This document shows, piece by piece, positions 1 to 47,515 of a DNA stretch of 54,729 nt. Under the pieces are notes generated by a model that ran no database searches, had not been told where the DNA came from, and saw only the letters and a program-made list of their open reading frames with translations. The stretch is from Folioceros fuciformis (Eukaryota): contig JBNGIO010005336.1 of assembly GCA_049999805.1 (NCBI GenBank), positions 1 through 54,729 on the forward strand, read 5' to 3'. Position 1 is the stretch's first letter. Every line of letters starts with the position of its first letter. The position numbers were made by a program, and so were the translations under genes.

Positions 1-461
1 ACTAATATTATATACTTAATCTTATTATAACTTTATAATAAATAAAATAAGAAATAAACTTCAAATTTACCTCAAAAAATGGGTTATTTTTACTTTGAAA
101 CTTGTTTCAAAGAAGACCTAACCTGCTTTAAAACTTCTTTTTCAATTTATTAATTCTTAATTGTAGATATAGTATCATTTGGTTGTTGCTCTATACGTAT
201 AACCACAAGTGCATCTTCCACTTGAGCACAACCTAAAATAGGCCTTTCTTGATAATATTCTGCAGAAGAATTTTCAACATTGACAACTTCGTTTTCAGGT
301 GGAGGTTGAACAGAAGCCCATGTATTATTTGCATCTGGAGTAAAAAAAGATAGCAGGCTCTTCCGCTAGATGCGCAAACACAAGCTCCTCTAATGGAAGG
401 GGTTGGTTGCTGGAAGCCAGAGAAGGCGTGCTGGCGGAGGCCCTAGATAGCACATGCGTTT

Positions 462-690
462 GTCACCTCATAATAAACAAATTCTTGTGAAGAGATAGGA
501 GGGGTTAATCATGCTGTTTCAAGTCCTAAATCCCTCATTTAACAAAGAAGCATTTATATTTCTATGTAATCTATATTGAGTCACCTCATAATTAACAAAT
601 ATTTGTGAAGACATAGGAGGGGTTAATCATGTTGTTTCAACTACCAAATCCCTCATTTAACAAAGAAGTATTTATATTTCTATGTAATCT
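462..690. repeat. Tandem direct repeat, two copies, period ~118 bp
   Basis: gtcacctcataa...atttctatgtaatct at 462-572 and again at 580-690 with scattered substitutions. Confidence 0.9.
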
Positions 691-1073
691 GAACAAAAAT
701 CTTGACGTGCTTGGTTGACTTACTGTTACTCGTCATGATTATCAACATTTTATGTCTCAAAACTAAGTGGATTCAAGTCTGTATCTTACACACTACCACT
801 TGCTCTCTTGCTATAATTTGGAGTGTTTTCAACAATTTCTAATGATTTTCTCTTTTATCATGGATATGCCAAGCTTTTTTATTGCATTGTGAATATCTAT
901 ATTATCCATACTATTTTAGTATAATATATATAATTTTATATTATAAAATCAAAATAATATTTATAGAATTGAACTATAATAATTAGGAATACTTATTTTC
1001 ATAAAATAAGTAGCATATAATATTTATAGGAAAATAATATTTATTCTTACTCCCCTATTAGGGAATACCCAAA

Positions 1074-1310
1074 CCTGTAATGAAAGGTATAACATTTAGA
1101 GAGGTCACATCTAGAGAGCCTGTAACGAAAGGTATAATATTTAGAGAGGTCACATCTAGAGAGNNNNNNNNNNNNNNNNNNNNNNNNNNNNNNNNNNNNN
1201 NNNNNNNNNNNNNNNNNNNNNNNNNNNNNNNNNNNNNNNNNNNNNNNNNNNNNNNNNNNNNNNAGCCTGTAACGAAAGGTATAATATTTAGAGAGGTCAC
1301 ATCTAGAGAG
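1074..1310. repeat. 45-bp tandem repeat spanning an assembly gap
   Basis: cctgtaaYgaaaggtataaYatttagagaggtcacatctagagag at 1074, 1119 and 1266. The N gap at 1164-1263 means copy number is unknown. Confidence 0.8.
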
Positions 1311-2497
1311 GGTCGACTGTATAGTAGTGTGTCCAGAATACGATGGTACAGTAGTGTTGGACACACGGCAAGGCATGGCCTCGTGCAGGGGTCAGGTCCC
1401 ATAATGGCTTCCTCTCGATCTTTCCAAAATTTGTCCCCTTGTCTTAATAACTGAAACGATTCTCTTGCTTATGAATCTTCTGGCTTCCTGAATCCTTGTG
1501 CTCTGTCTCAGGAAATAAGGCAGTGGCGTCTGAGAGCGCACCACGTGTCTCGGCCCACCACACCGATGCGGGCCATGGCTGCTCCAGTTCAGTCCCAAGT
1601 TGGGACTCCCAACTCCTCAGCCCTTATCTTTCAGCCCGCCCTGTTTGCATTGTTGTCTCAGGCTTTATCTGGGAACGGTCTGGGATGCAGTCACGTGCAA
1701 GGGATGTTGGTACTCTGTGAGAGGTCTCTATCCAGCAAGCATAAAGTTCCGCAGCCCGATGTAGTAAGGAGGTGTGACGGCGTGAATTGCTTGCCTTGCG
1801 GAGCCAGGACTACAGGCTTGTGCAGGTTGGTGACTTTAGTGGAGGTGGGTGGCACTTGATTCCTGAGGGCCGTTGCCGTTTCTGTTTACTGCGTGATCAT
1901 CTCGTCATGGAAAGGAATTGCTATTACATCTGTTGATCAATTCAAGGATCATTAGAAGTCTACCAGGACTCAGAATCTCTGTATACGACAAGTCCATCCA
2001 CCATACCCATCTCATCTGCGTGAGAGGGTGGTGACCGCGCCATCCCTGCACGAGACATGATGCAGCTGCGAATCACTTTGAATGAAGCACTCGAGATACC
2101 AGGAAGGTGCATAGCTTGTGCTTATCAAGTCACATGGCCCTAAATGCTCTGAGGACCTTGTTGTATCTGTCACGCTGGATTCGACTTGTCTGAACGTGCC
2201 GAAAGAAACATGTCCATGGATCCCTGTTCGCCGACAGACATGAAGTCCGACTCCTTGGGCCTTCGGAAGCCAGACTCCACTTTGAACCAACACGGGACGC
2301 ATCGGACTCCAGTCCTTATCCTCTGGTTTGGGTGCACAAATTCCGTAATCAGAACGTTTCATATTTTCGCACAACCAGTTGTAGATGTGACGGTCAGTCC
2401 CTTGTCTGACTACGACGCACCCATGTTGAGCTCATCTGCATCCTAACTTCATTGACATATATCTGGCTGGCATCTGAAGCATCAGGGCCTGTAGAAT

Positions 2498-4437
2498 TCA
2501 GATATGTTGCAGTGTCTTCCTTTCCTTTCGACGTCCGTGCTGTGTCTGCAATCGTTTGAATGCGACGATCGCTGCCATCGCCAAAACCAATAGTGTCTCA
2601 GCCAGATCCCAATGGCACGACACGCAACGGATCCTAGTCCCCAGATCCGTGGCAGATTCCACGCAGTCAAACGTGAAGGGCCTTCCACACCCTGATCCCA
2701 AGGCCACGCTTGCAGAACACCACCTCAACTCGTGTGACGGACTGGATCCAAGAGGTTTGTCCATCCTGTTGGAGCGTTTGAGTCGATTTGATCGAAGTCG
2801 CTCCATCCTGTGTGAAACAGCCGTCTGACGCGGGCCTGGGGGCGAAGGCTTAGGACCAAGTGCCTTAGCTCCGGAGGCTTTCTCCCCGATGAACACAAGG
2901 GGTATGAGACCGAGAAGGCAGCCCAATGTGATGCCAAGGGAGGACCCAACAGTCTCTGCCCACCATGCCTCTTTGGAGTTCATTTGCAGGGTGGAGACTT
3001 TGAGTTCTGGCATAAGTGGTGTACAGAACCCGTCAATGTACCCAGAGAACGCAGTCCCTAGAAAATCAGAGACTGCGTTCCCTAGTCCTGCGGACTGCAA
3101 TCAAATCAAGAAACAGCACGGTGAGATTCTTTTCTCGGTTCCATCAATCGGTATATGCTCCCAAAACCGTGAAGCCCCCATGCTACAGGAGATTAATGTA
3201 CCGTCAGAGTTGTCAGGCCAAACATGGCACCAAGGCTGTTCTCAATGGCATCCCCGGCTATAATCATTACTGCATTGTCTGCAGCGAACATGAGGATGGT
3301 TCAGAGGCAGCAGAAATCATGGCTGACGCAGACGCATCTCACAGTGAAGCAGTAAACAAAAGTTTGAAATGTTCGAACAGCAGAGGAGATGGAGTTAGTA
3401 CTTGTCCACACCTACAAAACCAAAACCCAGCATCCCTGTAGAGGACGTCGGTTGTAGAGAAAAAACATGTGGTCAGTACACAGAATGCAGAAGTTACCGA
3501 CCCTCCTATACGCTTTGCACAACTCTAGAAGTACGGCAAGAATTTTCTTTGGGAAGGAGACGGATCTTCTGTACCGACTGCAGCTCTGATCCCAAGGTTG
3601 AAAATCTGATAGACCGTCAGTGGCCTGGAGGACAACATCTCCTGTGCCTCTAAATAGTTCGCAAACTCCTCCTTATCAAGCACACCGTCCGCATTTTTGT
3701 CCGCCTCCTTAAACAGCAGGTCAGCCGTGGAATGATCGGAGGCTGCATGCCCAAGAGGACAGTGTCACCCACAAGATTACTTCGCCTGCCCCTTGATCGA
3801 CCCTCAAAAGTTTTCACAAGGAGAGCTTTCAAGTAGTACCACTGGAATACAGAGCACATAGCAGAGCAGCTCTGCCTCGCTGATCGATAGCTGTGACAAG
3901 CTCAGTCGCTGCCTTGATGGCATTGCTGGATTCATCTTCAAGAAGCTTCCGCATGTCGGTCACCACACCTTCGCCCTCGTGTCTGGACGTGCATCGCAAT
4001 CTGCCAGACTGGTGCCATCGTTCCCATCGGCAGCGCTCTAACGTGCTTGGCCTCCTGATCGTGTCTTTCAGATGACTTTGATCAGACTTCACACCGTCCC
4101 TCAGCCTCTCTGCACGATAAGAAGCTCCGCTGGTCCCCGCCCTCCAGATCAGGGGCAGGTCAGCAGCAAGAGCAGCCTCGTCCCAAGGTTTCCAAGTATG
4201 GGGTTTTCCCAATCCGTGCCGGTGGTTGGACGTTGCAGCTGTGGGGAACGTCGACCTCGAGGTGTGGGTGATGCACTGCGCATGATCCTCTTGTCTGAAT
4301 TGAGTCTGGCAACTGAGGCCGAAGGCGCAACTGTCACCTGGGCTTGCGCATCTCAAGGCAGCTAATGATTGACAAGCTTGGGACAGCTCGGAACATGCCC
4401 GCAGGTGGAGACCGGGGTTCATCAGATATTGCGGCAT
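2498..4437 (-). CDS. TMEM65: EF-hand-containing TMEM65-family membrane protein (spliced; both termini uncertain)
   Basis: Phase-compatible GT-AG exons 4437-3840, 3742-3575, 3435-3412, 3278-3202 and 3094-(2498) give ...LFKEADKNADGVLDKEEFANY...RAAVGMLGFGFVDNAVMIIAGDAIENSLGAMFGLTTLTSAGLGNAVSDFLG...GITLGCLLGLIPL. These match the TMEM65 signatures GFGFxDNAxMIxAG, AxLGNxxSD and GCxLGxxPL. Confidence 0.8.
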
Positions 4438-5382
4438 TGCTGCTCCAATGTGGGAGTGAAACCATCGTCCAGGCTACAAGGAGTCCTCGATGTCAGGTAC
4501 AGGGTCGCAATCGGACCCGGAACTGCAGGAAGAAGATATGAGAACGTTGGTGGTGCAGACAACAAGGAACACCAAACTCCAGTACAGTGTGGCCAACATC
4601 TTGAGCAGCTGTTGCAGCTATTAGAGCTCTGACGATATCTTCACAAATCGTAAGAGGCAGGAACGTGATCGCTGTCGCACAAGGCGTAGATGCTCACAAA
4701 CGCTACCAGCTTCTGAGACCGAAGATTGTGCATTTAGGGCCCCTTTCCTGGGATGAATGGCGGTTATGGCCGTTGGCATGCCCCCCGCGCGGCTAAACCG
4801 NNNNNNNNNNNNNNNNNNNNNNNNNNNNNNNNNNNNNNNNNNNNNNNNNNNNNNNNNNNNNNNNNNNNNNNNNNNNNNNNNNNNNNNNNNNNNNNNNNNN
4901 CGGCTAAACCGCGCGGCTGCCGCGTTCCCCTGACACTAGAGTTTCCTGGGTCTCCAAGCTTCTTTCTCACATCTCAAATTCCCAGCAAGAAACAGCGCGG
5001 TGTGACGGATTTGCATGTGCACGCTCCCTTTCTTGTAACCTGCACAAGGTGTGGTGATGACCGACATCCAGAATTGCGTTGCAACCAGCAAATGCACATG
5101 CGCTACCCGTAAATCGTTTGTGACTGGTGGTCCTGTGACAGCCCCACGATATTGCACTGATTGCGACCCACGTCTCTAAGATCTGCATACACAGTTGCTG
5201 GTGGCATAATGGACATCATCACGCAACCATTTTGCGCGATGAGCCTGTTCCGGTGAGAACAAATCCAGACTTGTCTGGTGCAGATTAGTTTGGTCTCGCC
5301 TGCACGGTATTCCCGGTTAATGTGAAATGATGGATGCTCAACCCATGACAGCAAGAAGCGGCTACCGAGGTCGGAGCAAGCC

Positions 5383-7684: not shown

Positions 7685-8893
7685 TCATGACGATGACGAA
7701 AGGTGCGCCCGGACGAGGGGGACGAGAGACTGGACGACGTCGGTCATGAGAGGGCGGTAATCGGCCTCAGGCTGCACGCACATGGCGGCGATGGCGGCAA
7801 CCTGAATGAGCTCCTTGACGGGGAAGTGGCCGCCGAGGGCAGGGTCCACCATCTCGATGAGCTTGTCGCGGTCGGTGAGACGGGGAAGGGCCCAGGAGAC
7901 GAGCACGCCCTGGCCGGGGGGGCGCTTCATGTCTACAGGGACGCGGCCGGTGATGAGCTCGAGCAGCACGACGCCATAGCTGTAGACGTCGGACTTGGTG
8001 GTGAGATGGCCGGTGAGGGCGTACTCGGGGGCGACGTAGCCCGTAGTGCCAAGGACCCGGGTGGAAACATGGCCTCCAACCTTCTCAGATCCGTGCTTGG
8101 CGAGGCCGAAGTCGGACACCTTGGCATTGAACCTGTCGTCGAGCAAGATGTTGGAGCTCTTGAGATCGCGGTGGATGATGGGAGGGCGCACCAGCTCGTG
8201 CAAGTATTCCAGCCCCCTGGCCGCGTCCAGGGCGATGCGCATGCGCTTGCGCCAGTCCAGCACCTGGGTGGGCCTCACGTAGGCAGAGATGTCCGGGTAG
8301 AGATGCTCCTGAAGGCTGCCGTTGGGCATGAACTCGTAAACGAGGAGGCGGTGATCCTGGTCCGCGCAGTAGCCAATGAGGTCGAGCAGGAAGTGCGAGT
8401 GCAGACGGGAGAGCATATCCACCTCCACCCGGAACTCGTGATCCCCCTGCTTCCCGGCCCAATCCAGCTGCTTGATGGCCGCCACCCTTCCATCCGGGAG
8501 CGTCCCTCTGTACACACAGCCGAAGCCGCCATGCCCCACCACCTTCACCGGGCTGAAGTTGTCCGTGGCCTGCTGCAGCAGGCGGTATGTGAAGACTTGC
8601 GCCTCGGAGGCCAGCCCCCGAGCCAGCCTGGGTGCCACGAGGCTGTACTCCTGGCCCGCCAGCCCCATCCCCATCGCCGGCTTGATGTTGCTGCAGCTGC
8701 CATTCCCCTTGAGCTGCTGCTTGAGCTGCTTGTTGCACAGCCCGCTCCCATTCTGCCGCACCTTCCTCCGGATATAGCAATAGTACCCCAGCGCCACGCA
8801 AGACGACACCACGGCCACCAGCGCAATTGCGATGATCACCACCAGCGCAATGCTGCAATGCAAGAAGGAGAGAAAATGATTAAAGCACGACAT
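7685..8893 (-). CDS. Pelle/RLK-family Ser/Thr kinase with a single N-terminal TM helix (PBL7-like), intronless kinase domain
   Basis: TM segment IALVVIIAIALVAVVSSCVALGYY followed by RRK. Kinase motifs GHGGFGCVY, AIKQL, HRDLKSSNILL, DFGLAK, GTTGYVAPEY and KSDVYSYGV are all present. Confidence 0.95.
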   Translation of the reverse strand: MSCFNHFLSFLHCSIALVVIIAIALVAVVSSCVALGYYCYIRRKVRQNGSGLCNKQLKQQLKGNGSCSNIKPAMGMGLAGQEYSLVAPRLARGLASEAQVFTYRLLQQATDNFSPVKVVGHGGFGCVYRGTLPDGRVAAIKQLDWAGKQGDHEFRVEVDMLSRLHSHFLLDLIGYCADQDHRLLVYEFMPNGSLQEHLYPDISAYVRPTQVLDWRKRMRIALDAARGLEYLHELVRPPIIHRDLKSSNILLDDRFNAKVSDFGLAKHGSEKVGGHVSTRVLGTTGYVAPEYALTGHLTTKSDVYSYGVVLLELITGRVPVDMKRPPGQGVLVSWALPRLTDRDKLIEMVDPALGGHFPVKELIQVAAIAAMCVQPEADYRPLMTDVVQSLVPLVRAHLSSSS

Positions 8894-11800
8894 GTTGTGA
8901 TCAAGGCTCCGCCACGGCTGCCCCTATGGCGAGGGCGGCAGACAGTGTTGTGCAAGCTTGACTGCCCAGCTCATCAATTCCCCCTAGGCCTGCCTCATTT
9001 TTTCCCCCTCCTCCTTTCCCACCACCCATTTCCACCACCACCACCACCACTCCACATCATGTCATCAGGCTATAGCATCACATGTTCCAGTTCCACTACT
9101 TGCCTCCCTGACATGCTTCCTCCTGCTCTCCTGCTGCTGCTGTTGCTGTTCTTGTTGCCTAGCTGCCCGTAACTTCTTTCCTTCTTCTTCTTCTTGTTGT
9201 TGGAATCGCTGTGTGTCGGGCAGTTAACATTCCATGGAGCGTCACGGACTGCGGCAGTCAGCTGCCAGCCGTTCTTTAAAGCGGGGAACAACTCTTGCCA
9301 AGAGCAATGGACAGAGCAGGCCCGCCATGGCAGAAGGGGCAACAGTAGAGAGAACAAAAAGGCGGGCAGGGAGAGCGAGAGCGACAGGACAATGCTACAC
9401 TCCAACTGGTTCCCCCTTCCTTCCCTCTCCTAGAATAAGATGCACCCACTGCCCTCTGCATCACTCATCTCTTTCGCACGCACACAGACAGAGACACACA
9501 TACTCGATCACAACACACAAGGCACTGATGAAGGCACAGAGGCGTCGCGCCAGCGAAGGCACCCATGACAGCTCTGGAAGGTGTAACCAGAGCAGAAAAG
9601 GCTGCGAGCAAGGGCCGCCGCGAGCGACCACCTACCAAGACCAGCGTCAGCGTCCAAGAGGCGCTGCTGCTTCCCCCTCTGAGCCCGCGTCTGCATCTGC
9701 CGCTCCTGCTGCAGGCTTCCCTGTGGAGCCACCACCAGCCAGGCACGCAGGCGCAGGAGCAGGAGCAGGCTCATCAGGCCCAGGCTCTCAGGCCCATTCG
9801 CAGGCGCAGGCGCAGGCGCAGGCCAGGCTCGTCAGAGGGACCGCATTCCCATGATGGGCGACGCAGGGGCGGGCCACGGCCTTCCGTCCCACTATCCGGA
9901 CGGCCCGTCCGAGCTGCCGCGGCGAAACTGAGTTCCGCCGCAAGGTGTACGGCTCCGGATAACGGAACGCCATCGTCTTCCTCCCACGGGAGGAGTTCCC
10001 AGACCTCGGGGATCGGAATGCCACCCGCGCTTTAGGAGTCCTGCCACTTCCTGCCTTCTCATAAATAAATGGCAATCCGGACATGAATGAGCTCGCACCC
10101 GGAGGCCCGCGCCGTGTGGGCCTCTGCGTTGCCGTCCTTCGCTCGCTCAAATTTCGAAACCGCCCCAACGGCAACAAAAAAAGATACATACCCATGCACA
10201 CAGCCAGAGACAGCGGCTGTGTGGCCAGCCAACAGGAGCGAGGAAAAAGGTGGGCTGCCAGTGCCAGACCTCCCAAGCCCAAGCCCAAGCTCGGCCCGCC
10301 CCGGGTCCCCCCATTGACGTCCGTCCTGTCAGGGGGGCTGTGGCCGTCTAGTAAGCCCGGCGAAACCACGGCGGCGAAACCTCGACTCCCCAACACCCGC
10401 ATTATTTACACCGGTCGCGACCCCGGGCTGGGCCAGTTTGAACACCCTTCTTCTTCCATGTATATAATCATGTCGGCTGCGCGGCAGGACAGGGCTCATT
10501 TGGTGACACTAATCCCTCTTTGTACCTGTACCTGAGAAACAGAACCTGAACCTGTACCCGTGCACGTTAGCCACCCGGGAAGCCTCACGTGTAGGCCGTT
10601 CATTCACGCTTCCGTTACGTTAAGCAACTTAAGTATGTTTGTGGGTACAGGCCTAATGCAGCGCAAAAACTGTGAAGGAGCCACTGTGGATTCGGAGGCT
10701 GCGATAGATAGAGATACGAAGGGCAGCACAGGCAAACCACAAGCAGCAAACAGCTGCTATCCTAATCGAGGCTGTGGTTATGCGTGTACAATACGCAAGT
10801 TCGGGAAGGGAACAAACGGGACGCCCACAACTGAAGTCGATTGGACTGGACTGAACTGAATTGACGTGAAGGAAAGTGAAGTGGTGTGGAGACAAGCCTC
10901 CGCCTTGGCCTTTCCGACATGACAAGCCATGTGATTGCTTGCGGGAAAAGCGCAAGACGGCGGACGCCATTGGTTTTAGCTTTTGGCCTAAAAGCTTGCC
11001 GCAGTATACTACTCTTATTATATTACTAAACAACAGGAGGCAGACGCTTGAAACATGGACAAGAAGCATGTGAAGCGTATGAGTGTCGAGGATCCTGACT
11101 TAACGCCATCTCCTAGGTCCTCCAGGATGTCTCTTCCACATGGAGCCACCCAATGGCATGTCCTACTCTTCTGCTTTACGTGGCACTTGATCCATTGGGC
11201 ATATCCATCTGCGACCTTAGCCACTCCGACACACACACACACTGTGCCCCCTCCTGAACAGCTCAAAATACTGTACAGCGTGAACAGTGGATGTGTGTGT
11301 CCATCCATGCCAGTTCTCCCCGTTGCCTGCGTGTCGTTATGTTTCCGTATCCACCGGGTAAGCTTTGACTGGCCTTTCCCGCTACCCGCCCCTCCACCTT
11401 CGTGGGAGTTTAGCGGGCCCATGACATTGGGATTAAATACTTCTGAATCCTGTGTGGCAATAAATCTTCTCACACAAATGGCACTACACACTAAAAGCTG
11501 GATCGGCGAGGTGATAATCAAAGAGCTTGTTCTGTGTCATCATCCTGGAATCAAGAATCTTGAAAATTTGGTAGTAACGTAAGCATTGGCACCACATTCT
11601 TGGGAGGATAAGAGTTTGATGCCTAGACACAAACTATGGAGCCTAGAGTATTGGCGTTTTGAAGGAGAGGATCCTAGGCACAATCTTGTGAGGACACCAT
11701 TGAGGTGTCTCTAGGGTGTGCAATAAGATTGTGTGCATGTAGGAGTGCGGTGTCTTCAAAGAATACAAGCTGTAGATCGTGAAGAGGAGTCTGTATGCTA

Positions 11801-13814: not shown

Positions 13815-16800
13815 TTAACGCTGTGGGAACCCTTGATCACGGACCACAAAAGTTCGAACTTGCTGCTCACACTCAATCCAGCTCGTGCCTTGTTTCTTCC
13901 GTGCACCTTCACTTTGTCTTATAACATGCACCTCCAGGGCGCGTTCCAAAAGACCGGCATCAGAGTAGATCTGTGACATTAACAGATATGAAGCAGCATG
14001 TGTCGGCTGCAGACGAACTGCAGAGTGAAAGGCTTTTTCACCTAGCCCTACATTGCCATGCTTCCGACAAGCACCGAGCAAAGATAAGCACATGGCCAGA
14101 TCAGGCTGCACTGGCATATTTGACAGCAAATCTAGTAATGGTGTAAAGCATCCTGCGCGGCCATACAAGTCTACCATGCTCACGTAGTGCTGAATGTCTG
14201 GAGTTAGTCCATGATCCCTGCTCATGGATGCGAAGTATTGAACGCCTTTGTCGACGAGCCCAGCATGGCTACAGGCAGAAATGAGTGAGAGAAATGTAAC
14301 TTGATCTGGCTTCAAACCCACCTCCTGCATTTTCTCGTAGCATTGGAGGGCCTCTGGACAGCACCCATGCTGCGCATATCCAGCAATCATGGCATTCCAA
14401 GTGACAATGTCTCTAGTGGGCAATCTTTCAAAAACTTTGCAGGCATCCTGTAAGCTCCCGCATTTTGCATACATGTCCACCAGGCTGCTGCCAACGACCA
14501 CGTCAGCCTCCAGTCCCGAGTCCTGAATCTGGGCATGGAGCTGCTCTCCTTTACGTAGAGTTCCAATACTGGCACAAGCTTTCAAGAGGGAAGTAAATGT
14601 AATGTGATCAGGAGGAGGACCCCCCTCCAGTTGCATCCTTGCATAAAGGGCAAGGGCTTCCTGACCAGGGCCATGTTGAGCATATCCTTGGATCATAACA
14701 TTCCAAGTCACTATGTCTTTGGTGGTCAGTCTCTCAAATACGCTCCGAGCATCCTCTAAGCTGCCACATTTGGCATACATGTCCATGAGACAGTTGCCAA
14801 TAACCGCATCCTTTTCTAATCCTTGACCTGTTATTTGGGAATGAAGCTCCTTACCCTGAGGCAAGGCTCCAACACTCCCACATGCTCTCAATAGGCAGGC
14901 AAGCACAATATGATCAGTTGGTGTGATGCCCTCCTCTTGCATCCTGTTGTACAGAGCGAGAGATTCTTCACCAACCCCATGTTCAGCATAGCCAGAGATC
15001 ATGGTAGTCCACGTTACCACATCTTTGATTGGCATCCTGTCAAACACCCTTCGAGCATCTTCTAAGCTCCCACACTTTGCATACATGTCCACAAGGCAGT
15101 TGCCAATGACAATATCATCTTGCAGACCGCTGCTCCGAATCTCGGTGTGAAGTTTCTTGCCCTCATACAAAGCTCCCAGGCTCGTGCATGCTTTCAGGAC
15201 GCAGACAAATGTGATATGATTGGCTTGTATGATGCCTTCCTGATGCATAACCGCGTAAAGACTAAGAGCTTCTTGACCAAGCTCATGCTGGGAATAACCT
15301 GCAAGCATAGCATTCCACGACACCACATCTTTGGTGGTTAGTCTATCAAATACACTTCGAGCAGTCTCCAGGCTTCCACACTTTGCATACATATCCACGA
15401 GAGAGTTCCCAGTGACCAAGTTAATCAATCCTTTGGACTCCATATCGAGATGGATCTGCTTTCCCTGGTGTAGATCTCCGATGCTGGCACATGCCTTTAA
15501 CAGGGCGGAAAGCGTGATAAGATCAGGTGGGGTGATGCCCTCCTCCTGCATCCTTGAATAGACGGCAAGAGCTTCCCTGCCCATGCCATGCTGGGCATAG
15601 CCTGTAATCATGGCATTCCAGGTCACCAAATCTTTTCTGGGAACACGGTCAAACACTGTGCGTGCATCCTCTAAGCTTCCACATTTTGCATACATGAACA
15701 CCAAGCTGTTGCAAATCACCACGTCACTGTCCAGTCCTCTTTCCTGAACTTGGAAGTGAAACTCCTTGCCCAGATGTAAAGCTCCAATGGTTGCGCACGC
15801 TTTCAGGAGGGCCACAAACGTGACCTGATTCGCTGGCATGGAGCACTCCTGTCGCATATTTGCATAAAGGCCAAGCGTTTCTTGAGCAAGCCCATGGTGC
15901 ACATATCCGGCCAGCATGGCATTCCACGTGACCACATCTTTCACTGTCAACTTGTCAAACACACTGCAAGCATCCTCTAGACTCCCACACTTGGCATACA
16001 TGTCCACCAGAGAGTTGCCAATTATACCATCAGCTTCCAGTCCTTGGCTCAGAATCTGGGAATGAATCTGCCTTCCTCGATGTAAAGAACTAACATTAGC
16101 GCATGCTTTTAGCAGGTAGGCAAATGCAATATGATCCACGGAAGCAAGGGCCTCCTGTTGCAGACTTTCATATAGAGTCAAAGCCTCTTGGCCAAGCCCG
16201 TGGTGAGCATACCCGGAAAGCATCACGTTCCATGACACCGCATCTCTCATTGGCAATGCATCAAACAGTCTGCGCGCATCTTCTAAGCCGCTACATTTTG
16301 CATACATATCAATGAGGCAGTTTCCAATGGTACAATCACTTTCCAGCCCTCGTTCCTGAATCTCAGCATGAAGTTTCTTTCCTTGATACAAGTCTCGAGC
16401 GTTTGAGCAAGCCTTCAGAAGACACACGTATGTCACACGGTTTGATGGAGAGGAAACGAACTGTTGCATAACTGTGTACAGCCTAAGGCACTCTTGCCCT
16501 AATCCGTGCTGAGCATACCCTCCAAGCATTGCATTCCACGTCACAACATCTTTGATGATCAACTTATCAAACACCCTGCGTGCATCCACCAGGCTTCCAC
16601 ATTTGGAGTACATGTCCACTAGACAACTACCAAGGACAATGTCAGCGTCCAATCCCATTTCCTGAATCCAGTGATGAAACTTTTTCCCTTGCTCCAGATC
16701 TCCAATGCCAGAGCAAGCTTTCAGAAGGCAGACGAGTGTGACTCGATCAACTGAAGTGATGTCCCTCTGTTGCATGATGGCGAAGAGATCTAAAGCATCT

Positions 16801-17742
16801 TGATAAAGCCCGTTCTTGGCATATGCTGCCATCATAGCATTCCACAGCACCACGTCCTTTACAGATAAGCTATCAAAAACTTTGCGAGCATCTCCCAAGC
16901 TGCCGCATTTGGTATACATGTCGACCAGACTGCTAGCAACGTATACATTGGGCTCACCCATGGTACCCAGAACATCAGCATGGACTTGTTTGCCGAATGC
17001 CAAATCTGTTGCATTTCCACATGCTTTGAGGACAGCAACAAAGATATACTTGTTTGGCTTGGCAGCCGACTGCTGCATCTGTCTAAAAAGCTGTAAAGCA
17101 AGTCCAGGCTGTCCGTGATCAGCATGAGCCAAAATGATGGAGGACCATACGAAAGTGTCTGGTGCAAGCAATTTGTTGAACACCTGCATTGCTTCCTGCA
17201 ACCTGCCATGCGACACATAGATACGAATGATGTCGTTGGCCAAAAACGCACTTGACTCATACCCACTCTTGCAAGTAAGAGCATGGACGCTCCTACCAAG
17301 ATCCAGATCGTTTTCCATCTTGCAGTCTTCAAGAACTCCATGCAAGAGCGATGAAGGAACATACGATCCTCTTTCCACCATGAGGCCCAACTGCTGAACA
17401 GCAACATAGTCCTGGCCATCATCACGTGATCCTCTCTGGTTCCCATCGCTTAGTTCCCTTTCCACCCCCCTGCACGATTGACGAATTTCAAGGCGGAAAA
17501 GCCAATTAGGCAAGCATGGCAACAAGAAAATTGGACCCAACTTCTCACCCGTGTATTGCAGCGTCGTGCGTTCGTGTCAAATGATGTGCACGAGGACGTC
17601 CTTGATGCTCACGAAAATGGTTTGCTGTTTGCCTGAGCGATGACAAGAGCCCACACCGTAGCTTCCAAGTGCTGGGTCGACCTTGTATTTGGCGCAACAG
17701 GGTCAAATGTGAGGCGGTTCCACCAGCTCTTCTCGCGCTCAT
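13815..17742 (-). CDS. PLS-class PPR protein, E/E+ type, no DYW domain (PPR-A)
   Basis: Exon 1 (17742-17549; ATG, R/S/A-rich transit-like MSARRAGG...) is spliced via a 79-nt GT-AG intron (17548-17470) into the long ORF. It has 9 xxMYxKC S-motif units in P-L-S triplets, then E1/E2 motifs and a PG-box-like KKQGTSWIE...FVVRD before the stop. Confidence 0.92.
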
Positions 17743-18084: not shown

Positions 18085-18190
18085 CAGTTGATTATCCTCG
18101 GGCGTACCGAACCAGAGCAGAGAACGCCCACTCCCACAGTTGATATCCCTGGGCGTACCGAAGCAGTGCAGAGAACGCCCACTCCCACAG
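18085..18190. repeat. ~52-bp tandem duplication between the divergent PPR genes
   Basis: cagttgat...gggcgtaccgaa..gcagagaacgcccactccca at 18085 and 18137. Confidence 0.85.
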
Positions 18191-18245
18191 GGACCGGAAC
18201 CCTCGAACTGTCTATGTCTACGAAGCTCCCAATTCCGAGCTGGCT

Positions 18246-20579
18246 GTGGGAATTTTGTTGAGAGGTGTAGTTTTCTTCCGCCGGCCTTCAGCTGCGTTGC
18301 CAACATGTGAAGCTCTTGCAGGCAGACTTGGGGATACAAACCTGAACCATGGCAATTTTGACAGTACAAGAGCAGCCGGACCTGACACGTACTCGAAGAA
18401 TGGAACCTGCAGAGAATCAAGTGGAGATGGACTCAGTAAGGAAGTTGAGGCGTTGGCCCTTCTGGTGGCACAAGGGTCGTATGTGTCGTCATCCTTGTTC
18501 CATTCTCTCCTCAGAAGTTGTGCAGTTGACAAGGATGGCATTCTGGGAACGCGTGTTCATGCTCTTGTACTTAAAAGCGGGTCCCTCTCTAACACGTCTT
18601 TGGCAGAGCGGATCATTCGCATGTATGCTTCTCATGGGAGCTTGCACAGGGCTACTAATGTGTTCGATAGTGTAGCCACACGCAATGCTTCCTTGTGGCT
18701 CTCCATTATTCTGGCACATGCTGAACATGGGCAACCCACCCATGTCATACGACTGTACAAACAGATGCAACTGTCAGCTGTGAAACCCAACACCTACGTG
18801 TTCGTGGCGGTGCTAAAAGCCTGTGGTGCAGCATTAGATGTCGTATCGGGCAAGGAGGTACATGCTGAGATTGTGCGGAGTAAGTGTGAGTTGAATGTGT
18901 TCCTTGGCAGCAGCCTGGTGAACATGTATGCAAAATGTGGGAATTTGGAGGATGCCCGCGTAGTGTTCGACGGCTTAACCTGCAAGGACGTGGTGTCATG
19001 GAATGCAATGATTGCAGGATACGCTCAGCATGGGCTCAGTCAGGAGTCGTTTGCTCTGTTCTCCAGTATGCAACAGGAGGGTGCCATTTCAGGGAATCAG
19101 TCCACATTTGTGTGCCTCCTTAAAGCGTGTGCCAGCTTTGGAGCTTTACATCAGGGCAAGGAGCTTCACTCCCAGATTCGGAAGAGGGGCTGGGGAGGTG
19201 ACGTGGTTCTCGGTAGCTGCCTAGTGGACATGTATGCAAAATGCGGCAGCCTTGAGGATGCTCGCCATGTGTTTGACATGTTGCCCCTGAAAGACGTCAT
19301 CACATGGACTGCCATGATTGCAGGATATGCTAAGGAAGGGTGGGGTGAAGAATGTCTCATGCTGTACGCTGATATGAAGAGGGATGGCATCAGTCCAGCT
19401 GATCATGTCACATTCGTTTGTCTTTTGAAAGCTTGTGCCAGTGTTGGGGCTCTACATCAAGGTGAACAGCTTCACGCTCAGATTCTTGGCCAGGGATTCG
19501 GGGCAGACCTTATTGTCGGGAACAGTCTGGTGGACATGTACGCAAAATGTGGGAGCTTAGAATATTCCCGGCGGGTGTTCGAAAAGATGCCTGTCAGAGA
19601 TGTGGTAACATGGAACGCACTGCTTGCAGGCTATGCTCATCATGGGCTCGGCCAAGAATCCCTGAGCCTTTATTCAAGTATGCAGCAGGAGGGTATTTGT
19701 GTGCCGAATCATGTTACCTGGATGTGCCTTTTGAAAGCATGTGCTAGTATTGGAGCCTTGCATCAAGGTATAGAGATACACTCCCATGTTCAAGAAAACG
19801 GACTCCAGGCCGATGTGCTTATTGGCAACTGCCTGTTGGACATGTATGCAAAATGCGGGAACCTTGATCGTGCCTGGCAAGTATTTGAGGCACTCCCAAG
19901 CAGGGATGTGGTGGCTTGGAACACGATGCTTGCGGGATATGCTCAGCACGGATGCTGTAAGGAAGCCCTGCAATGCTATGAGAGAATGCAGGTAGCCGGG
20001 AGGAAGCCTGACGCTGTCACCTTCCTTGCACTTCTCTCTGCATGTCGACATTCTGGTCTAGTGGATCAAGGGGTGGTGTATTTTAACTCCATGAGCCGAG
20101 ATCATGGCATACCTCCAGCAATCGACCACTACGTGAGTATGGTAGACCTCTTTGCCCGTGCAGGACATTTCAAGCAGGTAGAAAACATGCTGCTCACGAT
20201 GCCAATGCAGCCTAATCGGGCCTTGTGGCTGTGCTTGCTGGGTGGGTGTCGAAAACATGGCAACGCAGTTCTCGGGGAACGGGCATTTGAATGTGCAGTA
20301 AATCTGGACCCCAAGAATGCCGCGCCGTATTTGCTGATGTCACAGACGTATGCTGCCGCTGGTATCTCTGAACATGCAACAGAGCTGCACAGGCTAAGGG
20401 AGAAGCAAGGTGGCTGGAAGGACCCTGCCCAGAGCTGGATTGAACATGAACAGGAAGTGTACTCGTTTGTAGTTGGAGATAACCACTCGCAGCACGAGGA
20501 ACTGTATGACCTTTTAGAAAAGGTAAACCTTCAGCTGAAGAAGGGCATTGTACAGACTCACAAGCAAGATGCACTATAG
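18246..20579 (+). CDS. PLS-class PPR protein, E/E+ type, no DYW (PPR-B); true start unresolved
   Basis: 4 MYAKC units in PLS triplets, E domains and WKDPAQSWIE...FVVGD...EELYDLL. There is no in-frame ATG before the PPR region, so an upstream exon is likely. Confidence 0.92.
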   Translation: MGILLRGVVFFRRPSAALPTCEALAGRLGDTNLNHGNFDSTRAAGPDTYSKNGTCRESSGDGLSKEVEALALLVAQGSYVSSSLFHSLLRSCAVDKDGILGTRVHALVLKSGSLSNTSLAERIIRMYASHGSLHRATNVFDSVATRNASLWLSIILAHAEHGQPTHVIRLYKQMQLSAVKPNTYVFVAVLKACGAALDVVSGKEVHAEIVRSKCELNVFLGSSLVNMYAKCGNLEDARVVFDGLTCKDVVSWNAMIAGYAQHGLSQESFALFSSMQQEGAISGNQSTFVCLLKACASFGALHQGKELHSQIRKRGWGGDVVLGSCLVDMYAKCGSLEDARHVFDMLPLKDVITWTAMIAGYAKEGWGEECLMLYADMKRDGISPADHVTFVCLLKACASVGALHQGEQLHAQILGQGFGADLIVGNSLVDMYAKCGSLEYSRRVFEKMPVRDVVTWNALLAGYAHHGLGQESLSLYSSMQQEGICVPNHVTWMCLLKACASIGALHQGIEIHSHVQENGLQADVLIGNCLLDMYAKCGNLDRAWQVFEALPSRDVVAWNTMLAGYAQHGCCKEALQCYERMQVAGRKPDAVTFLALLSACRHSGLVDQGVVYFNSMSRDHGIPPAIDHYVSMVDLFARAGHFKQVENMLLTMPMQPNRALWLCLLGGCRKHGNAVLGERAFECAVNLDPKNAAPYLLMSQTYAAAGISEHATELHRLREKQGGWKDPAQSWIEHEQEVYSFVVGDNHSQHEELYDLLEKVNLQLKKGIVQTHKQDAL

Positions 20580-22115: not shown

Positions 22116-22659
22116 ATCTAGGTTCAGTTGTTGTTAAGGGGATGGAATGTGATAGCCAGTTGTTATTGTGACAGCATTCCCTTCAGTACATTGTGGTAAA
22201 TTATCCCCTATTCGAGAGCTTTATATCGTGCGCTCATTCCCCTATAATTTGGGCGACATCCCTTCCACTAAGAAGTTTAAATTTTGGGAAGGTTTTGTAA
22301 TGCATTTTGGATCGGGGCCAATTACGGCTAGTTGGCCCCGCACAGTCAAATATAAGTAGTATCGAGAAGTCGCACGCAGCAAAAGTTGCGCTCCTCGGGT
22401 TTGGCGGAGGGGTAAGAGCCTTCCCACTCATGCTTAAGAGGTGTGTATTCATTTAAGCTGTGTATCCATCTTTACACCATTAGGTCTCCGACTCTCATAC
22501 ATGTGTACCCAGCTTTACACTTTGGGCTGCTCTGTATCCGGACGTGTATCCAATCTTCACACTTTGAGCTGCTCTTTATCCGGACGTATCCATCTTCACA
22601 CTTTGAGTTGCTGCGTGCAGGATCCCGATGTTCAGTTGGAAGGGCTGATTGTCTTCCTT

Positions 22660-22950
22660 GTCACACATGAACTGGTAGACGCACGCCGAGATTTTGTCAG
22701 CTTGCGCAAATGTGCAGGCAACGAGCAGGTGCTGAAGAGACCCAAGCAGGAGCTGCAGCGCACCCGGCTGGGTCTCACATACTGTACTATTCCAAGAGAG
22801 ATACGCGGGCCATGCAAGAGGAAGGCCATGATTGCACCCGCCTATGTGACACATACGGGACCCCCCTCCTGCGAGCATATGCAAGTGTGGGACAGGCTGT
22901 AGCCATGTCCGAGGTCCCAGAGATAGGAGATGCAGGTCTCTGACTCTGCA
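22660..22950 (+). pseudogene. Heavily decayed PPR fragment (paralogue at ~24880-25160)
   Basis: Broken frames give ELVDARRDF and AMQEEGH...LLRAYASVG, which resemble the SLVDARRVF and MQEEG...LLRACASVG PPR motifs. Confidence 0.45.
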
Positions 22951-22959
22951 GGGAAGCTG

Positions 22960-23556
22960 CTCATACCCACTCTCGCAAGTAAGAGCATGGACGCTCTTAC
23001 CAAGATTCAGATCTTTTTCCATATTGCTGCCTTCAAGAACACCATGCAGGAGCGACGAACGAACATACGACCCTTGTTTCACCATCAGGCCCAGCTGCTG
23101 AACAGCAATATAGTCCTGGCCATCATCACGTGATCCTTTCTGGTTCCCATCCCTTAGGTCCTTCTCCACGCCCCCGCACGATTGACGAATTTCAAGGCGG
23201 AAAAGCCAATTAGGCAAGCATGGCAACAAGAAAATTGGACCCAACTTCTCACCCGTGTATTGCAGCGTCGTGCGTTCGTGTCAAATGATGTGCACGAGGA
23301 CGTCCTTGATGCTCACGAAAATGGTTTGCTGTTTGCCTGACCGAGACAAGGGCCCACACCGTAGCTTCCAAGTGCTGGGTCGACCTTGTGTGAGGCGGTT
23401 CCACCAGCTCTTCTCGCGCTCATTTGAAGGGAACTTCATTTGCGGCTTCGAATTGTGGAACTGTCCCAGTACCACGCAATGACCGGCGCTGGGGATCATA
23501 CGGAAACCAGATGGGGCAAGCCCAATGGATGCGGGATGCTGTACAACATTGCGTTT
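22960..23556 (-). pseudogene. Truncated, frameshifted copy of the PPR-A promoter, exon 1, intron and N-terminus
   Basis: Near-identical to 17256-17875. Exon 1 (ATG 23423) has 22-nt and 1-nt deletions, and homology stops after ...ESGYE. Confidence 0.9.
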
Positions 23557-26019: not shown

Positions 26020-27123
26020 CTACAGGCTAGCCTGCTCCCGGAGAACCCTTGGAACGAAGGTCTGGGCAACCAGCAAAGGGAAGGCGATGGTGGCGTCGCA
26101 ATGCACCTTAACTGCCTTTGCGGAGCCACGAATTTTCCCCCAAGACACTGCTTCGTCCGGAGACGCTCCGGAATCGCTCCCGTCGTACTCCTGCGCCGTG
26201 TTGATGTATACGGAAAAATCCGCACCGTTCCTCATCAGATTAGCGTTGCAGATATGGTGCTTGGGCAGGCCGCCTCCGAGCACGATGATGCCAGTCTTGC
26301 GCGGGGAAGCGTGCACAGCCTCTCCGTTCATCCGCGCAATGTCCTGCACAATATCGATCACCAGGCCCGGGTTACGATGCGAGTGGAAGTAGATCATGTC
26401 CCCCAGGGAGCCATCGGTAAGCGCAGGGCAGAACACTGGGACGCCGTTCCTCTCAGCCCAGTACAAGATGGAGCTTGGGTTGTCGATCTCCCTCCCCAGC
26501 CTGGCAATCACCTTGGACGGCGTCCACAGCACCCCCTGCTCCCTCTGCTCGGTCAGCAGACTATCCAGCACCGGCATCACCCAGTCCTCGAACTTGCAGT
26601 AGTTGTCGTTGGGCACGAGCAGATTCCCAATCCGGTTCAACCCCTGAGCCCGCAGCTGGACCCCGGGCAGGGTGAAGTCCCCCATGTAGGTGGGAGCCAG
26701 GCACTTTATGATGTCCTCCTCGATCCCGCCGGCCGTGGTGACCAGCACGTCCACCATCCTATGCTCCACCAGGTATCGGATGCTCTCTCGCAGCCCCGAT
26801 GACACCAGGTTGGATGTGCACCCGAGAAAGACCTTGCAACGCACCGAAGCCCTGAAGTCCGCATTCTGCTCCGCCTCGCTGCTCCCCTCTTCCACAGGAT
26901 CGTCGCTCAGCCTCCAGTCCAGCATACGGTTCACCTCCTCCACCGCCCTCCCCAGCTGCGACGCCTGGAAGCCTGTGTGGTGCATAGCCTGCAGCAAGCC
27001 CCTGTAGTCCAGCCCATGGTTGAAGTCGAACCCGAACACGGATTGCCGGCCCTCAAGCCCCGTCACCGATGATGCCCGCAGCACGTTCTGCACAGCTTCT
27101 GCCGGCACGCTCTCGCTCGCCAT
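26020..27123 (-). CDS. DHS: Deoxyhypusine synthase (intronless)
   Basis: Motifs [52 protein letters not shown] and [17 protein letters not shown] (catalytic Lys). The IARMN motif is the IxxxN DHS type, not the VxxxD homospermidine synthase type. Confidence 0.96.
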
Positions 27124-28998: not shown

Positions 28999-30345
28999 TC
29001 GCCAGCATACAGTGAGCCAAGATATCACACCAATTCCATCTACAGCTGGGTGATTTTTTGATGCAACTATTACCAGAATATCTTGTTTGGGGTCCATGTG
29101 CAAGTACAGGAGCACAGGTCGTCTTCTCAAATGGCAATTTACCTTCTTTCGTGAATTAACATCGAGAAGGAAAATGGAGACTTCGAAATATGCCATCCCC
29201 TGTCTCAGGATTGCTGGCTGTGTCCAGTGTAGGTTGCTTTGCACCCCATACAAGGAGAATGTCGGCGAAACGAATTTGTGGGCATTATGTCCCATGGGAC
29301 TCTCTGCCCTGCCTGGACAATTTTCATGTGCTGACATTTGTCATGCGAGGAGCGTGCACCCTCCATTGGAAGCATCAATCAGTGTCTTCCCCGACTCAGT
29401 ATTGTCGGCAGTGCTTCCTGAGAGAGCAGGTATAGGTAGGTCCGTTTGCTTCTATTAAGGAGAGTGGCCTTGTTTATAAGGGGGACTGCTACTGAAGGAA
29501 GCACCGTCGAGGATCCGGTTGGTCTGGGCAAGCTGCCGTCACCAGAAACTCGTGTTCAATTCGACTTTCTTGACCATGTAGACTTGCCCGCAGACGACGT
29601 CAATATAGCAGCGGCAAATAACCGGGGAAAGGATTAACTGGAAGTTGTTCCCACGCGACCGTAACTGCTCCAATCGGCTCTACTCTTTAGAAGTCGATGA
29701 GAAAAACTCTCCGTTGACACCTCCGCTCATTGTATGCAAATACCAGCTGCGTTTTAGCCCCATCAGGAGTTACCCGCAAGGAGAGTCGATTACAGAATGC
29801 CTAAATGGTAGAACATGTTCTCTTCGTGTCAAAATGAGATGGGGAAGGTGCCACTCCGATGGAGAGCCAAATGCTTGTCTCTCGCCTTATTCAAAGAAAG
29901 CCCAACGCCAACAGACATCTATCTTTGTTGCTCGGCGCAGCGGAGCATTGCACATCTGCAATTAGCACTTCGGAGCAGCGTGCCCACTGGGGGAACAACA
30001 GATTGAATGAGGTGGGTGCATCATGTTCGTGCTTGCAGCCGATGCCTTGACAGAGGATGACAGTTTCCTCTGGTCCCGAATTGTTGCTGAAGGTTGCACC
30101 ATTTCATGTTGTTTTAAAGGTTCGCACAGATTTCAGACCCTGTACACATCATGCATGGGTTTACGGGAAGCATGGACCAGGAGAGACTCTGACTTGTGCC
30201 ACTGAGCGTTGTGAGGCGGCGCTGAAGAGTGCTGGAAGGTCCATTTCCGCCACTGAGCTGCTTTTGCCACTGTGTTTCGTCTGGGGCCTGCAGGTTAGAG
30301 TCCTGGAATACCCACCTTGTTTTGACAGCCCCTTAGAAATGCAGG

Positions 30346-38516: not shown

Positions 38517-39264
38517 GCTCCGGCCCAGCACCCAACCAAGCATCAAATTGTCGGGAATGTGGCCTGCGTTTTGACTGTGTGAGGTGTGGGATACTTGGAA
38601 GTCCAGTGCACGCTCACTCCAGCGGGAGACTGGAGTGTGCATCCATCTTGCAACTTCTGGCATTTGTTTTAGTGAGATAAAAATATGGGGCGCGGGCTCG
38701 TCTTGGGTGGGGAGAAGGAATCTGGTGGGAAAGAGACGGAATCTGGAATTAGGCAGGCAGGTGAGGGGAAAAATTACAAGCACGTGGAAGCCTGTCATGT
38801 CCTTTGAGCCGTGAGCGTCGGTTCACAGCGTTTTGCCTGGGCCTGGCTTTGTACAAGGCTGGGACTGGACTCCATCGGGGCAGACAGACTGGTCTTGGCG
38901 CCGTCGTCGACCGGCGCTGAGGCATTCCCTTCTCCCCCGCCTTGGACGGGGAGCACGCCTTTCGTCGACGGATCTGGTATCAGCGGCGGCAGCCCTGGGG
39001 ATGGAAATGACGCCTTGGAGCACCAGGGAGTGATTCGGAAGGGAGGAAGGGAAGAGACGGCGATCGATCATTCATGGATGCAGGCGACGGGTGATGACCT
39101 GCGGAAGTGGTGCGACCGTTTCATCGATGCGAAAGCAGGCATGGAGATGATGAAGATGGTGCGAATTTAGGAAGAGGGGCGGGAGCGAGGTGGGTGGTGC
39201 GGGGTTGTGACGCCTTGTGGCGTGTGGTAAGGCCAGGGCGCAGTGCGAACAGGTGGATCGAGAG

Positions 39265-47442: not shown

Positions 47443-47495
47443 CGCCCTACGCTGTAACTGTCCCGGTGAATATTGCTTCCCCTTCGGAAGGTGTT

Positions 47496-47515
47496 AAACC
47501 CTATTGAAACCCTAG
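47496..47515. promoter_or_regulatory. Two telo-box-like motifs in a 123-bp bidirectional promoter
   Basis: AAACCCTA at 47496 and AAACCCTAG at 47507, between the PRS ATG (47442) and the ankyrin gene ATG (47566). Confidence 0.4.

What the first reader, a model, noticed from the sequence alone, without database searches (positions are those of the whole stretch)
2860..3760. TMEM65-family membrane domain fused to a canonical EF-hand in a land plant
Seen: manual splicing places a canonical 12-residue Ca2+-binding loop, DKNADGVLDKEE (3701-3666), directly before a complete TMEM65 domain. Known: mammalian TMEM65 is a mitochondrial inner-membrane protein implicated in Ca2+ efflux (Na+/Ca2+ exchange), and I do not recall an EF-hand in it or a flowering-plant orthologue. 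Inference: this could be a Ca2+-gated organellar transporter or regulator kept in early-diverging plants. Similar fusions may already be known in algae or protists.
Basis: partly seen in the sequence, partly recalled or inferred. Interest (0 to 1): 0.7.

Follow-up and report, generated by a model that had tools for sequence, protein, structure and literature searches.

The report
Plant TMEM65 exchanger, possibly chloroplast-targeted
This is a real moss-and-alga-type version of TMEM65, the protein that moves calcium out of animal mitochondria; its built-in calcium-binding loop is already known from many non-animal relatives, but the plant version looks as if it is addressed to the chloroplast instead, which nobody appears to have tested.

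Summary
The gene is real. Five exons splice in frame through GT-AG introns, and the EF-hand and TMEM65 pieces pass Pfam cut-offs. One junction is bridged by a probable RNA contig. A 57%-identical paralogue in the same genome has the same four introns.

The fusion is not new. It is in print for non-metazoan and kinetoplastid orthologues, and UniRef already names moss, liverwort and choanoflagellate copies 'EF-hand domain-containing'. Animals are the exception.

The gene belongs to a green-plant clade (Prasinoderma to bryophytes) that has a transit-peptide-like N-terminus and an extra C-terminal helix. It sits apart from the Chlamydomonas/Bathycoccus type, although joint monophyly is not rejected. 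Its presence in land plants contradicts a 2025 statement that other plants lack TMEM65.

Best reading: a homodimeric, Ca2+-sensing cation/Ca2+ exchanger, plastid (about 55%) or mitochondrial. Location and transport are inferred, not shown. The scan had earlier noted TMEM65-GAF fusions and viral TMEM65s on other DNA, not this form.

The parts
3840..4437 (-). Exon 1 (5' end uncertain): about 155-aa poorly conserved extension, then a conserved helical cap
   Evidence: Open frame 3829-4473; ATG at 4437; donor at 3840 shared in phase with the paralogue; a probable RNA contig covers 4193-4371
3991..3999 (-). Leu-Arg-Cys motif just before the conserved region; resembles the V/I-x-C/A stromal cleavage motif (motif recalled)
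   Evidence: Position; a [VIL]-x-C motif lies within 45 aa of the conserved region in 8 of 16 green-clade and 9 of 74 other homologues (motif chosen after seeing the alignment)
3840..3966 (-). Three-helix cap; in the dimer model of the moss orthologue it forms the soluble part of the dimer interface
   Evidence: Alignment; helices 90-138 of the orthologue model; interface residues 96-138
3575..3742 (-). Exon 2: single EF-hand, linker and start of the membrane core
   Evidence: Pfam EF-hand_1 and EF-hand_5 above cut-off; pN 0.25 against pS about 1.0 versus the paralogue
3666..3701 (-). Canonical 12-residue Ca2+-binding loop (D1, N3, D5, G6, D9, E12)
   Evidence: a loop 50-53 aa before the first conserved Asp in 18 of 18 green-clade rows
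3412..3435 (-). 24-nt microexon, phase 1/1, start of membrane helix 1; its last base begins the codon of the Asp equivalent to human D132
   Evidence: same size and position in the paralogue; not covered by RNA
3202..3278 (-). Exon 4: rest of membrane helix 1 and loop (human G140 and E144 positions)
   Evidence: Pfam TMEM65 27.2 bits; its donor at 3202 is bridged to 3094
2891..3094 (-). Exon 5, first part: membrane helices 2 and 3 with the D167 and G170 equivalents (Asp codon at 3067) and Asp at the E178 position (3034)
   Evidence: Pfam TMEM65 E 2.9e-13; offsets from the residue numbers of PMC12830682
2498..2890 (-). Exon 5, second part: disordered linker, then a green-clade hydrophobic helix with a basic tail (about 2605-2520); stop at 2500-2498
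   Evidence: Tail profile built from 13 other proteins scores this tail 12.4 bits, reached by 0 of 1000 shuffles; E 0.018 in the whole-protein search; helix 371-397 in the orthologue model

Best explanation
A nuclear gene of a non-seed land plant (probably a hornwort, by elimination) for a TMEM65-family cation/Ca2+ exchanger that keeps the family's widespread EF-hand and belongs to a green-plant clade most likely imported into plastids. Proposed working: (1) the N-terminal extension is cleaved on import [inferred]; (2) three helices cross the inner envelope or thylakoid, with cap and EF-hand in the stroma, and a fourth helix returns the basic tail to the same side [inferred from the published human topology]; (3) two subunits pair, and the conserved Asp/Asn residues of helices 1 and 2 from both form one ion site on the two-fold axis [modelled on the moss orthologue]; (4) the site exchanges Ca2+ for a monovalent cation, Na+ or H+ [inferred from animal TMEM65]; (5) Ca2+ on the EF-hand, which sits between the dimer cap and helix 1, tunes the rate, so export rises when organellar Ca2+ rises [inferred]. 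Shown here: gene structure, domains, residue conservation, clade membership and a second paralogue.
For: Family and EF-hand. The residues that PMC12830682 found necessary are D132, D167, G170 and E178 (section 7); the first three are kept at exact spacing and E178 is Asp. Dimer of the Ceratodon orthologue (residues 88-303): score 0.56, best of 3 controls 0.26; runs agree in at least 82% of contacts, pLDDT at least 71. That mark was reached by 21 of 30 solved homodimers and 0 of 23 monomers; in eukaryotes by 17 of 29 and 0 of 30, but by only 1 of 7 without an older solved relative; the job held Ca2+, unlike the calibration. D206, N207, N237 and D241 meet across the axis. Animal TMEM65 self-associates. 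N-termini: MA[ST] start in 6 of 16 green against 1 of 74 others; at most one Arg/Lys in the first 16 residues in 11 of 16 against 13 of 74; amphipathic moment 0.38 (13 green) against 0.62 (7 chlorophyte-type). These features fit plastid rather than mitochondrial presequences (criteria recalled). Clade support: 0.984 FastTree, 92/83, 93/93. 26 of 27 tail-profile hits at E<1 among 207 proteins are green-clade-like.
Against: No targeting predictor, proteome or fluorescence datum could be run or found, and the comparison sets are mostly non-plant. Rows are phylogenetically dependent and one motif was chosen post hoc; the broader V-x-C/A motif was not significant (9 of 16 against 24 of 74, p 0.09), and Ser/Thr content did not differ. 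One search left out three green rows (P0003, P0009, P0065; two have three basic residues early) and two chlorophyte rows without a basic N-terminus (P0020, P0021); both omissions favour the contrast. The window copy itself has no MA start and an unusually long, uncertain extension. The AU test does not reject green clade plus chlorophyte type as one clade (p 0.335). Only two TMEM65 loci were found in this genome, both green-clade, so a plastid location would leave mitochondria without TMEM65. Whether TMEM65 is itself the exchanger is disputed (NCLX-dependent model). The window copy has the longer branch of the two paralogues (0.40 against 0.13) and a decayed tail.
Confidence: 0.45

Rival explanations
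1. An ordinary mitochondrial TMEM65 orthologue with an EF-hand, as in kinetoplastids and choanoflagellates. It exports matrix Ca2+, and its N-terminus is a divergent plant mitochondrial presequence (or dual-targeting).
For: All studied members are mitochondrial; no other TMEM65 type was found in this genome; the AU test leaves simple descent from one green TMEM65 open; several putative cleavage sites also have Arg at -2 (alignment).
Against: Low basic charge and low amphipathicity at the extreme N-terminus, unlike the chlorophyte-type copies; MA[ST] starts; a separate branch with its own tail.
Confidence: 0.3
2. A plastid- or mitochondrion-located Ca2+ sensor or accessory subunit that regulates another transporter, or that carries another divalent cation such as Mn2+, rather than a Na+/Ca2+ exchanger in its own right.
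For: One group finds that TMEM65 works through NCLX; plastid Ca2+ carriers such as BICAT1/2 also carry Mn2+; the Pycnococcus member has lost the second Asn and Asp but kept its EF-hand; most land-plant copies have Gln at the E144 position.
Against: The ion-site residues are kept in this copy and in 17 of 18 green-clade rows and meet on the dimer axis; purified TMEM65 is reported to exchange ions alone (cited in PMC13254257; primary paper not held).
Confidence: 0.18
3. The window copy is a relaxed or decaying duplicate, and the C4132 paralogue is the working gene.
For: Longer branch, weak tail match, unclear start codon, low contig depth in the one run (the tool warns that depth is no measure of expression).
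Against: Intact frame over 487 codons with canonical introns; pN well below pS in the EF-hand and core; a spliced contig; the EF loop scores above Pfam cut-offs, where 6 of 7 homologues fall below them.
Confidence: 0.07

Closest known systems
Animal TMEM65 (Pfam PF10507), mitochondrial inner-membrane protein needed for Na+-dependent Ca2+ efflux (PMC12830682, PMC13254257)
   Same: Three-helix core; D132, G140, E144, D167 and G170 positions at exact spacing; probable homodimer; N-terminal helical cap aligned with insect copies.
   Different: Intact EF-hand (no loop found in the 2 insect rows); Asp at E178; no acidic tail but a linker and a fourth hydrophobic helix; N-terminus not of the Arg-rich amphipathic type.
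EF-hand-bearing TMEM65 of non-metazoans (kinetoplastids, Monosiga brevicollis, Bathycoccus/Chlamydomonas type)
   Same: EF-hand directly upstream of the core, at a similar distance (51 aa in Monosiga against 50 here); in print; Atlas clusters of 325 and 345 members.
   Different: Separate branch; most of those proteins have Arg-rich N-termini, some have further C-terminal EF-hands, and they lack the green-clade tail.
Uncharacterised bryophyte and streptophyte-alga orthologues (Physcomitrium A9SM92 / XP_024376189.1, Ceratodon M758_4G227600, Marchantia AXG93_4537s1020, Riccia, Spirogloea, Netrium, Closterium, Mesostigma, Prasinoderma)
   Same: Same clade and architecture, about 47-58% identity over the shared region (33% for Mesostigma).
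   Different: Automatic annotation only; no paper found for the accessions. This genome has two copies, and the window copy's tail is more decayed.
Chloroplast Ca2+ carriers BICAT1/2 and cMCU (PMC8890496, section 23)
   Same: Would share the compartment; cMCU is a precedent for a mitochondrial Ca2+ transporter family in the chloroplast envelope.
   Different: Unrelated families, described there mainly for uptake into stroma or lumen; that section names no carrier for release to the cytosol.

Membership tests
TMEM65 (PF10507) | Pfam PF10507 above its gathering cut-off | tested here: met
   27.2 and 50.2 bits on two exons, cut-off 25
TMEM65 (PF10507) | Three membrane helices with a glycine-rich helix | tested here: met
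   Long helices 185-225, 229-258 and 272-293 in the orthologue model, pLDDT about 90; hydrophobic windows for helices 1 and 3 in the window protein
TMEM65 (PF10507) | Activity residues D132, D167, G170 | tested here: met
   Kept at offsets 0, +35, +38
TMEM65 (PF10507) | Activity residue E178 | tested here: inconclusive
   Asp instead of Glu, as in Ceratodon; Glu in 22 of 24 rows; effect unknown
TMEM65 (PF10507) | Homodimer | tested here: inconclusive
   The model of the moss orthologue passes (0.56 against best control 0.26) but does not show binding, and it is not the window protein
TMEM65 (PF10507) | Mitochondrial presequence and inner-membrane location | tested here: inconclusive
   Composition differs from mitochondrial-type homologues; no predictor or experiment available
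TMEM65 (PF10507) | Na+/Li+-dependent Ca2+ exchange | not testable with these tools
   Needs reconstitution
EF-hand (PF00036/PF13202) | 12-residue loop with ligands at 1, 3, 5, 9 and 12, Gly at 6, between two helices | tested here: met
   helices 143-152 and 162-179 in the orthologue model
EF-hand (PF00036/PF13202) | Occurs as a pair | tested here: inconclusive
   Only one loop in the gene; pair models below cut-off; EF residues are not among the named dimer contacts, which the tool says is no evidence against contact
EF-hand (PF00036/PF13202) | Binds Ca2+ | not testable with these tools
   Needs a binding assay
Plastid-targeted membrane protein | Cleavable transit peptide | tested here: inconclusive
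   Clade-level features fit; the window copy has the motif but an uncertain start

The most novel reading that the evidence does not exclude
Early in green-plant evolution a TMEM65 copy was re-addressed from the mitochondrion to the plastid and gained a fourth helix. It is a self-regulating (EF-hand-gated) plastid Ca2+ exporter that algae and bryophytes kept and vascular plants lost, and the only TMEM65 left in land plants.
Probability: 0.35. Interest if true: 0.75.

Novelty: new variant of a known kind. Interest (0 to 1): 0.45.

Why it matters
The EF-hand fusion alone matters little: it is the common non-animal form. The clade matters more. If it is in plastids, it would be the first TMEM65 outside mitochondria in a eukaryote (none found), and a candidate route for Ca2+ release from the stroma, for which the review section read names no carrier. 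It can be tested directly in Physcomitrium or Marchantia, where my searches returned a single named orthologue per species. A plant member in a lineage with no known NCLX partnership would also test whether TMEM65 exchanges ions by itself, which is disputed. [quoted passage not shown]

Tried and rejected
EF-hands pairing across the dimer: my idea for how a lone EF-hand works. The dimer model names no EF-hand residue at the interface, so it is unsupported, not excluded.

Solved structures: no TMEM65-like chain by sequence (only weak EF-hand matches), by Foldseek (none at E<=0.001) or by VIA-align (best Z 6.8, none at 8 or more). A recalled VIT1/CCC1 likeness was neither seen in the listed rows nor found in print with TMEM65; this excludes nothing.

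RNA: no holder on record as RNA was listed; three junctions and the 5' end had no cover.

Paralogue as an allele or segmental copy: rejected. It shares only 72% over 158 bases, and no other gene in 8 kb around it matches the window.

A mitochondrial-type TMEM65 in the own genome: none found with the family model or with a Bathycoccus-type query; the assembly is fragmented (7240 contigs).

Exact lineage: a deoxyhypusine synthase tree leaves the plant outside the sampled moss, liverwort, lycophyte, fern and seed-plant groups but unresolved; 'hornwort' is by elimination.

The 20 'other' rows were hand-picked after and are not used as evidence.

Not-in-print searches. None of the listed titles and abstract starts concerns a plant or plastid TMEM65; two searches were too loose to be informative. 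Supplementary Fig. 1 of PMC13254257 (file too large) and Fig. 1a of PMC12830682 could not be seen and may show bryophytes. The primary reconstitution paper is not held.

Full report
Observation. The minus strand carries five exons (4437-3840, 3742-3575, 3435-3412, 3278-3202, 3094-2498) that join in one frame through GT-AG introns of 97, 139, 133 and 107 nt, giving 487 aa from the first in-frame ATG. The loop at 3701-3666 is the only EF-hand-pattern match in six frames of the window. On unspliced exons, Pfam gives two EF-hand models and TMEM65 above their cut-offs. One contig of run X1 (RNA status guessed by the tool) joins 3094 to 3202, and another covers 4193-4371; 3 of 4 junctions had no cover. 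The genome holds a second TMEM65 locus on contig C4132. It is 57% identical over 193 aa, has the same four intron positions and phases and the same 24-nt microexon, and shares no neighbouring gene in the 8 kb examined. Between the two, pN is 0.25 in the EF-hand and 0.20 in the core, against pS of 1.0 and 0.72 (saturated). The gene and the fusion are real.

Organism. The neighbours are land-plant genes (names from my reading of the ORFs, not scanned). The window's deoxyhypusine synthase is about 68-75% identical to moss, liverwort, lycophyte, fern and seed-plant proteins alike and joins none of those groups in a 29-row tree. A hornwort is likely by elimination only.

Is the fusion new? No. PMC13254257 (passages seen; 5 supplementary files searched; the file with Supplementary Fig. 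1 too large to read) says that many non-metazoan orthologues contain an EF-hand. bioRxiv 10.1101/2022.08.02.502535 (one passage) says so for kinetoplastids. Three of 7 hits carry the UniRef name 'EF-hand domain-containing protein' (Ceratodon, Marchantia polymorpha, Riccia fluitans), as do Physcomitrium, Monosiga and Pycnococcus. Of 199 proteins examined, 174 had a full core and at least 45 aa upstream; 97 of those 174 had an EF loop within 60 aa. That count is inflated by an EF-containing query and about 20 near-identical Bathycoccus-like rows, and deflated by a strict pattern that misses the liverwort loops found. With choanoflagellate, green and euglenozoan members, the EF-hand is probably old and was lost in animals (inference; no loop in 2 of 2 insect rows).

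What is new. [quoted passage not shown] This gene, its paralogue and the moss and liverwort proteins contradict that. On the membrane core they form one branch with Spirogloea, Mesotaenium (label read from the record name), Netrium, Closterium, Mesostigma, Prasinoderma and a long-branched Pycnococcus protein: support 0.984 among 164 cores, 92/83 in 49 rows, and 93/93 in 36 rows without Pycnococcus, with 100/97 for Zygnematophyceae plus land plants. Chlamydomonas, Edaphochlamys and Bathycoccus proteins lie elsewhere, but the AU test does not reject a single green clade (p 0.335). None of the named hits among 60 is a vascular plant, although Selaginella, Diphasiastrum, Adiantum, Ceratopteris, conifer and angiosperm proteins are in the same database. 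Many hits are unnamed and the search is word-limited, so loss in vascular plants is suggested, not shown.

First, a C-terminal hydrophobic helix with a basic end, after a disordered linker. A profile from 13 members hits 27 of 207 proteins at E<1, 26 of them green-clade-like; it misses Pycnococcus and one Marchantia model. The window's tail is decayed but scores above 1000 of 1000 shuffles. Second, the N-terminus. Among Met-starting rows with an extension of 35 aa or more (16 green after dropping 8 near-duplicate or apparently mis-predicted models; 74 others after dropping 21 near-identical rows), MA[ST] starts are 6 of 16 against 1 of 74; at most one basic residue in the first 16 is 11 of 16 against 13 of 74; and a [VIL]-x-C motif near the mature start is 8 of 16 against 9 of 74. 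The wider V-x-C/A motif (p 0.09) and Ser/Thr content do not differ. Against 7 chlorophyte-type rows, 13 green rows have a lower amphipathic moment (0.38 against 0.62) and fewer early basic residues (1.15 against 2.86); the five rows left out there would weaken the contrast. By recalled criteria this is the pattern of plastid transit peptides rather than mitochondrial presequences. The rows are related, so p-values overstate the case, and no predictor or proteome was available. I put plastid at about 55%, mitochondrion or dual at about 45%.

Mechanism. Using the residue numbers in PMC12830682, the window protein keeps D132, G140, E144, D167 and G170 at exact offsets and has Asp for E178. Eleven of the 18 green-clade rows, including the paralogue, have Gln at 144, a change that strengthened the human protein's effect. 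An AlphaFold2 model of the Ceratodon orthologue (mean pLDDT 71.5, pTM 0.55) shows a three-helix cap, the EF-hand, three long membrane helices and the tail helix. A two-copy model of its residues 88-303 scored 0.56 against a best control of 0.26 (runs agree at least 82%, pLDDT at least 71; the mark was met by 21 of 30 homodimers and 0 of 23 monomers, in eukaryotes by 17 of 29 and 0 of 30, and by 1 of 7 without an older solved relative; Ca2+ rode along, unlike the calibration). D206, N207, N237 and D241 of both chains meet on the axis and the caps pack together; EF-hand residues are not named. No solved relative was found, which makes recall less likely but does not exclude it. This fits the reported homodimer (cited). 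In human TMEM65 the N-terminal part faces the matrix, so the EF-hand would read stromal or matrix Ca2+ and sits between cap and helix 1, placed to regulate transport. Ion exchange and gating are inferred. PMC10592617 (passages) argues instead that TMEM65 acts through NCLX.

Context. PMC8890496 (passages; section 23, part 1 of section 24 and section 28 read) describes BICAT1/2 and cMCU for chloroplast Ca2+ uptake, and names LETM1 homologues for plant mitochondrial release. Section 23 says that stromal Ca2+ may be released to the cytosol but names no carrier. No paper held both 'TMEM65' and 'plastid'; six held 'TMEM65' and 'chloroplast' (listing seen, two of them searched further); none held the five orthologue identifiers. 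Earlier notes of this scan concern TMEM65-GAF fusions and viral members. The GAF architecture also shows in my hits, so the core is often coupled to a sensor. Nothing matched this gene by sequence or place.

Verdict. Observation confirmed; the headline fusion is already known; a distinct green-plant variant with possible plastid targeting appears to be undescribed and is easy to test. Novelty: new variant of a known kind. Interest 0.45.

Noticed in passing
G000:C4132 (L001 163-2079): Paralogue with the same five-exon structure, a cleaner transit-peptide-like N-terminus and an intact tail; probably the more conserved copy.
   Followed up: yes
window 3412-3435, minus: The microexon is 24 nt with phase 1 on both sides, so skipping it would keep the frame and the Asp codon but delete the start of membrane helix 1; a possible splice switch.
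   Followed up: no
P0197 (Pycnococcus/Pseudoscourfieldia cluster): Green-clade member that keeps the EF-hand but has Ser at both the second conserved Asn and Asp; possibly a non-transporting sensor.
   Followed up: partly
P0066, P0075, P0077, P0080, P0085 and others; P0028-P0030, P0058: 21 of 187 full-core homologues have EF-hand loops after the core, and some carry GAF domains: sensors were attached on either side of the core more than once.
   Followed up: no
window 13815-17576 (-), 18144-20579 (+), 30337-33744 (+): Three long single-ORF pentatricopeptide-repeat proteins of editing-factor type (by eye).
   Followed up: no
window 22576-23280 (-): Partial duplicate of the 5' end of the PPR gene at 13815-17576 that then loses similarity.
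   Followed up: no
window 26023-27123 (-): Deoxyhypusine synthase encoded without introns; used for lineage placement.
   Followed up: partly
window 7685-8923 (-), 39211-40544 (-), 46138-47493 (-), 47470-49836 (+), 50532-50984 (-): Receptor-like cytoplasmic kinase, AMT2-type ammonium transporter, PRPP synthetase with a transit-like N-terminus head-to-head with an ankyrin-repeat gene, and a CASP-like exon (names by eye).
   Followed up: no
window 1-1340 and 4801-4900: AT-rich start with local direct repeats on both sides of an N gap; a second N gap just upstream of the gene hides part of its promoter or a possible first exon.
   Followed up: no
L005 5476-6255 (+): Single-ORF DnaJ-domain protein with a transit-like N-terminus about 1 kb downstream of the paralogue (name by eye).
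   Followed up: no
P0041, P0242-P0255: JGI labels these TMEM65 proteins 'tRNA-specific adenosine deaminase 1', apparently a propagated mis-annotation.
   Followed up: no
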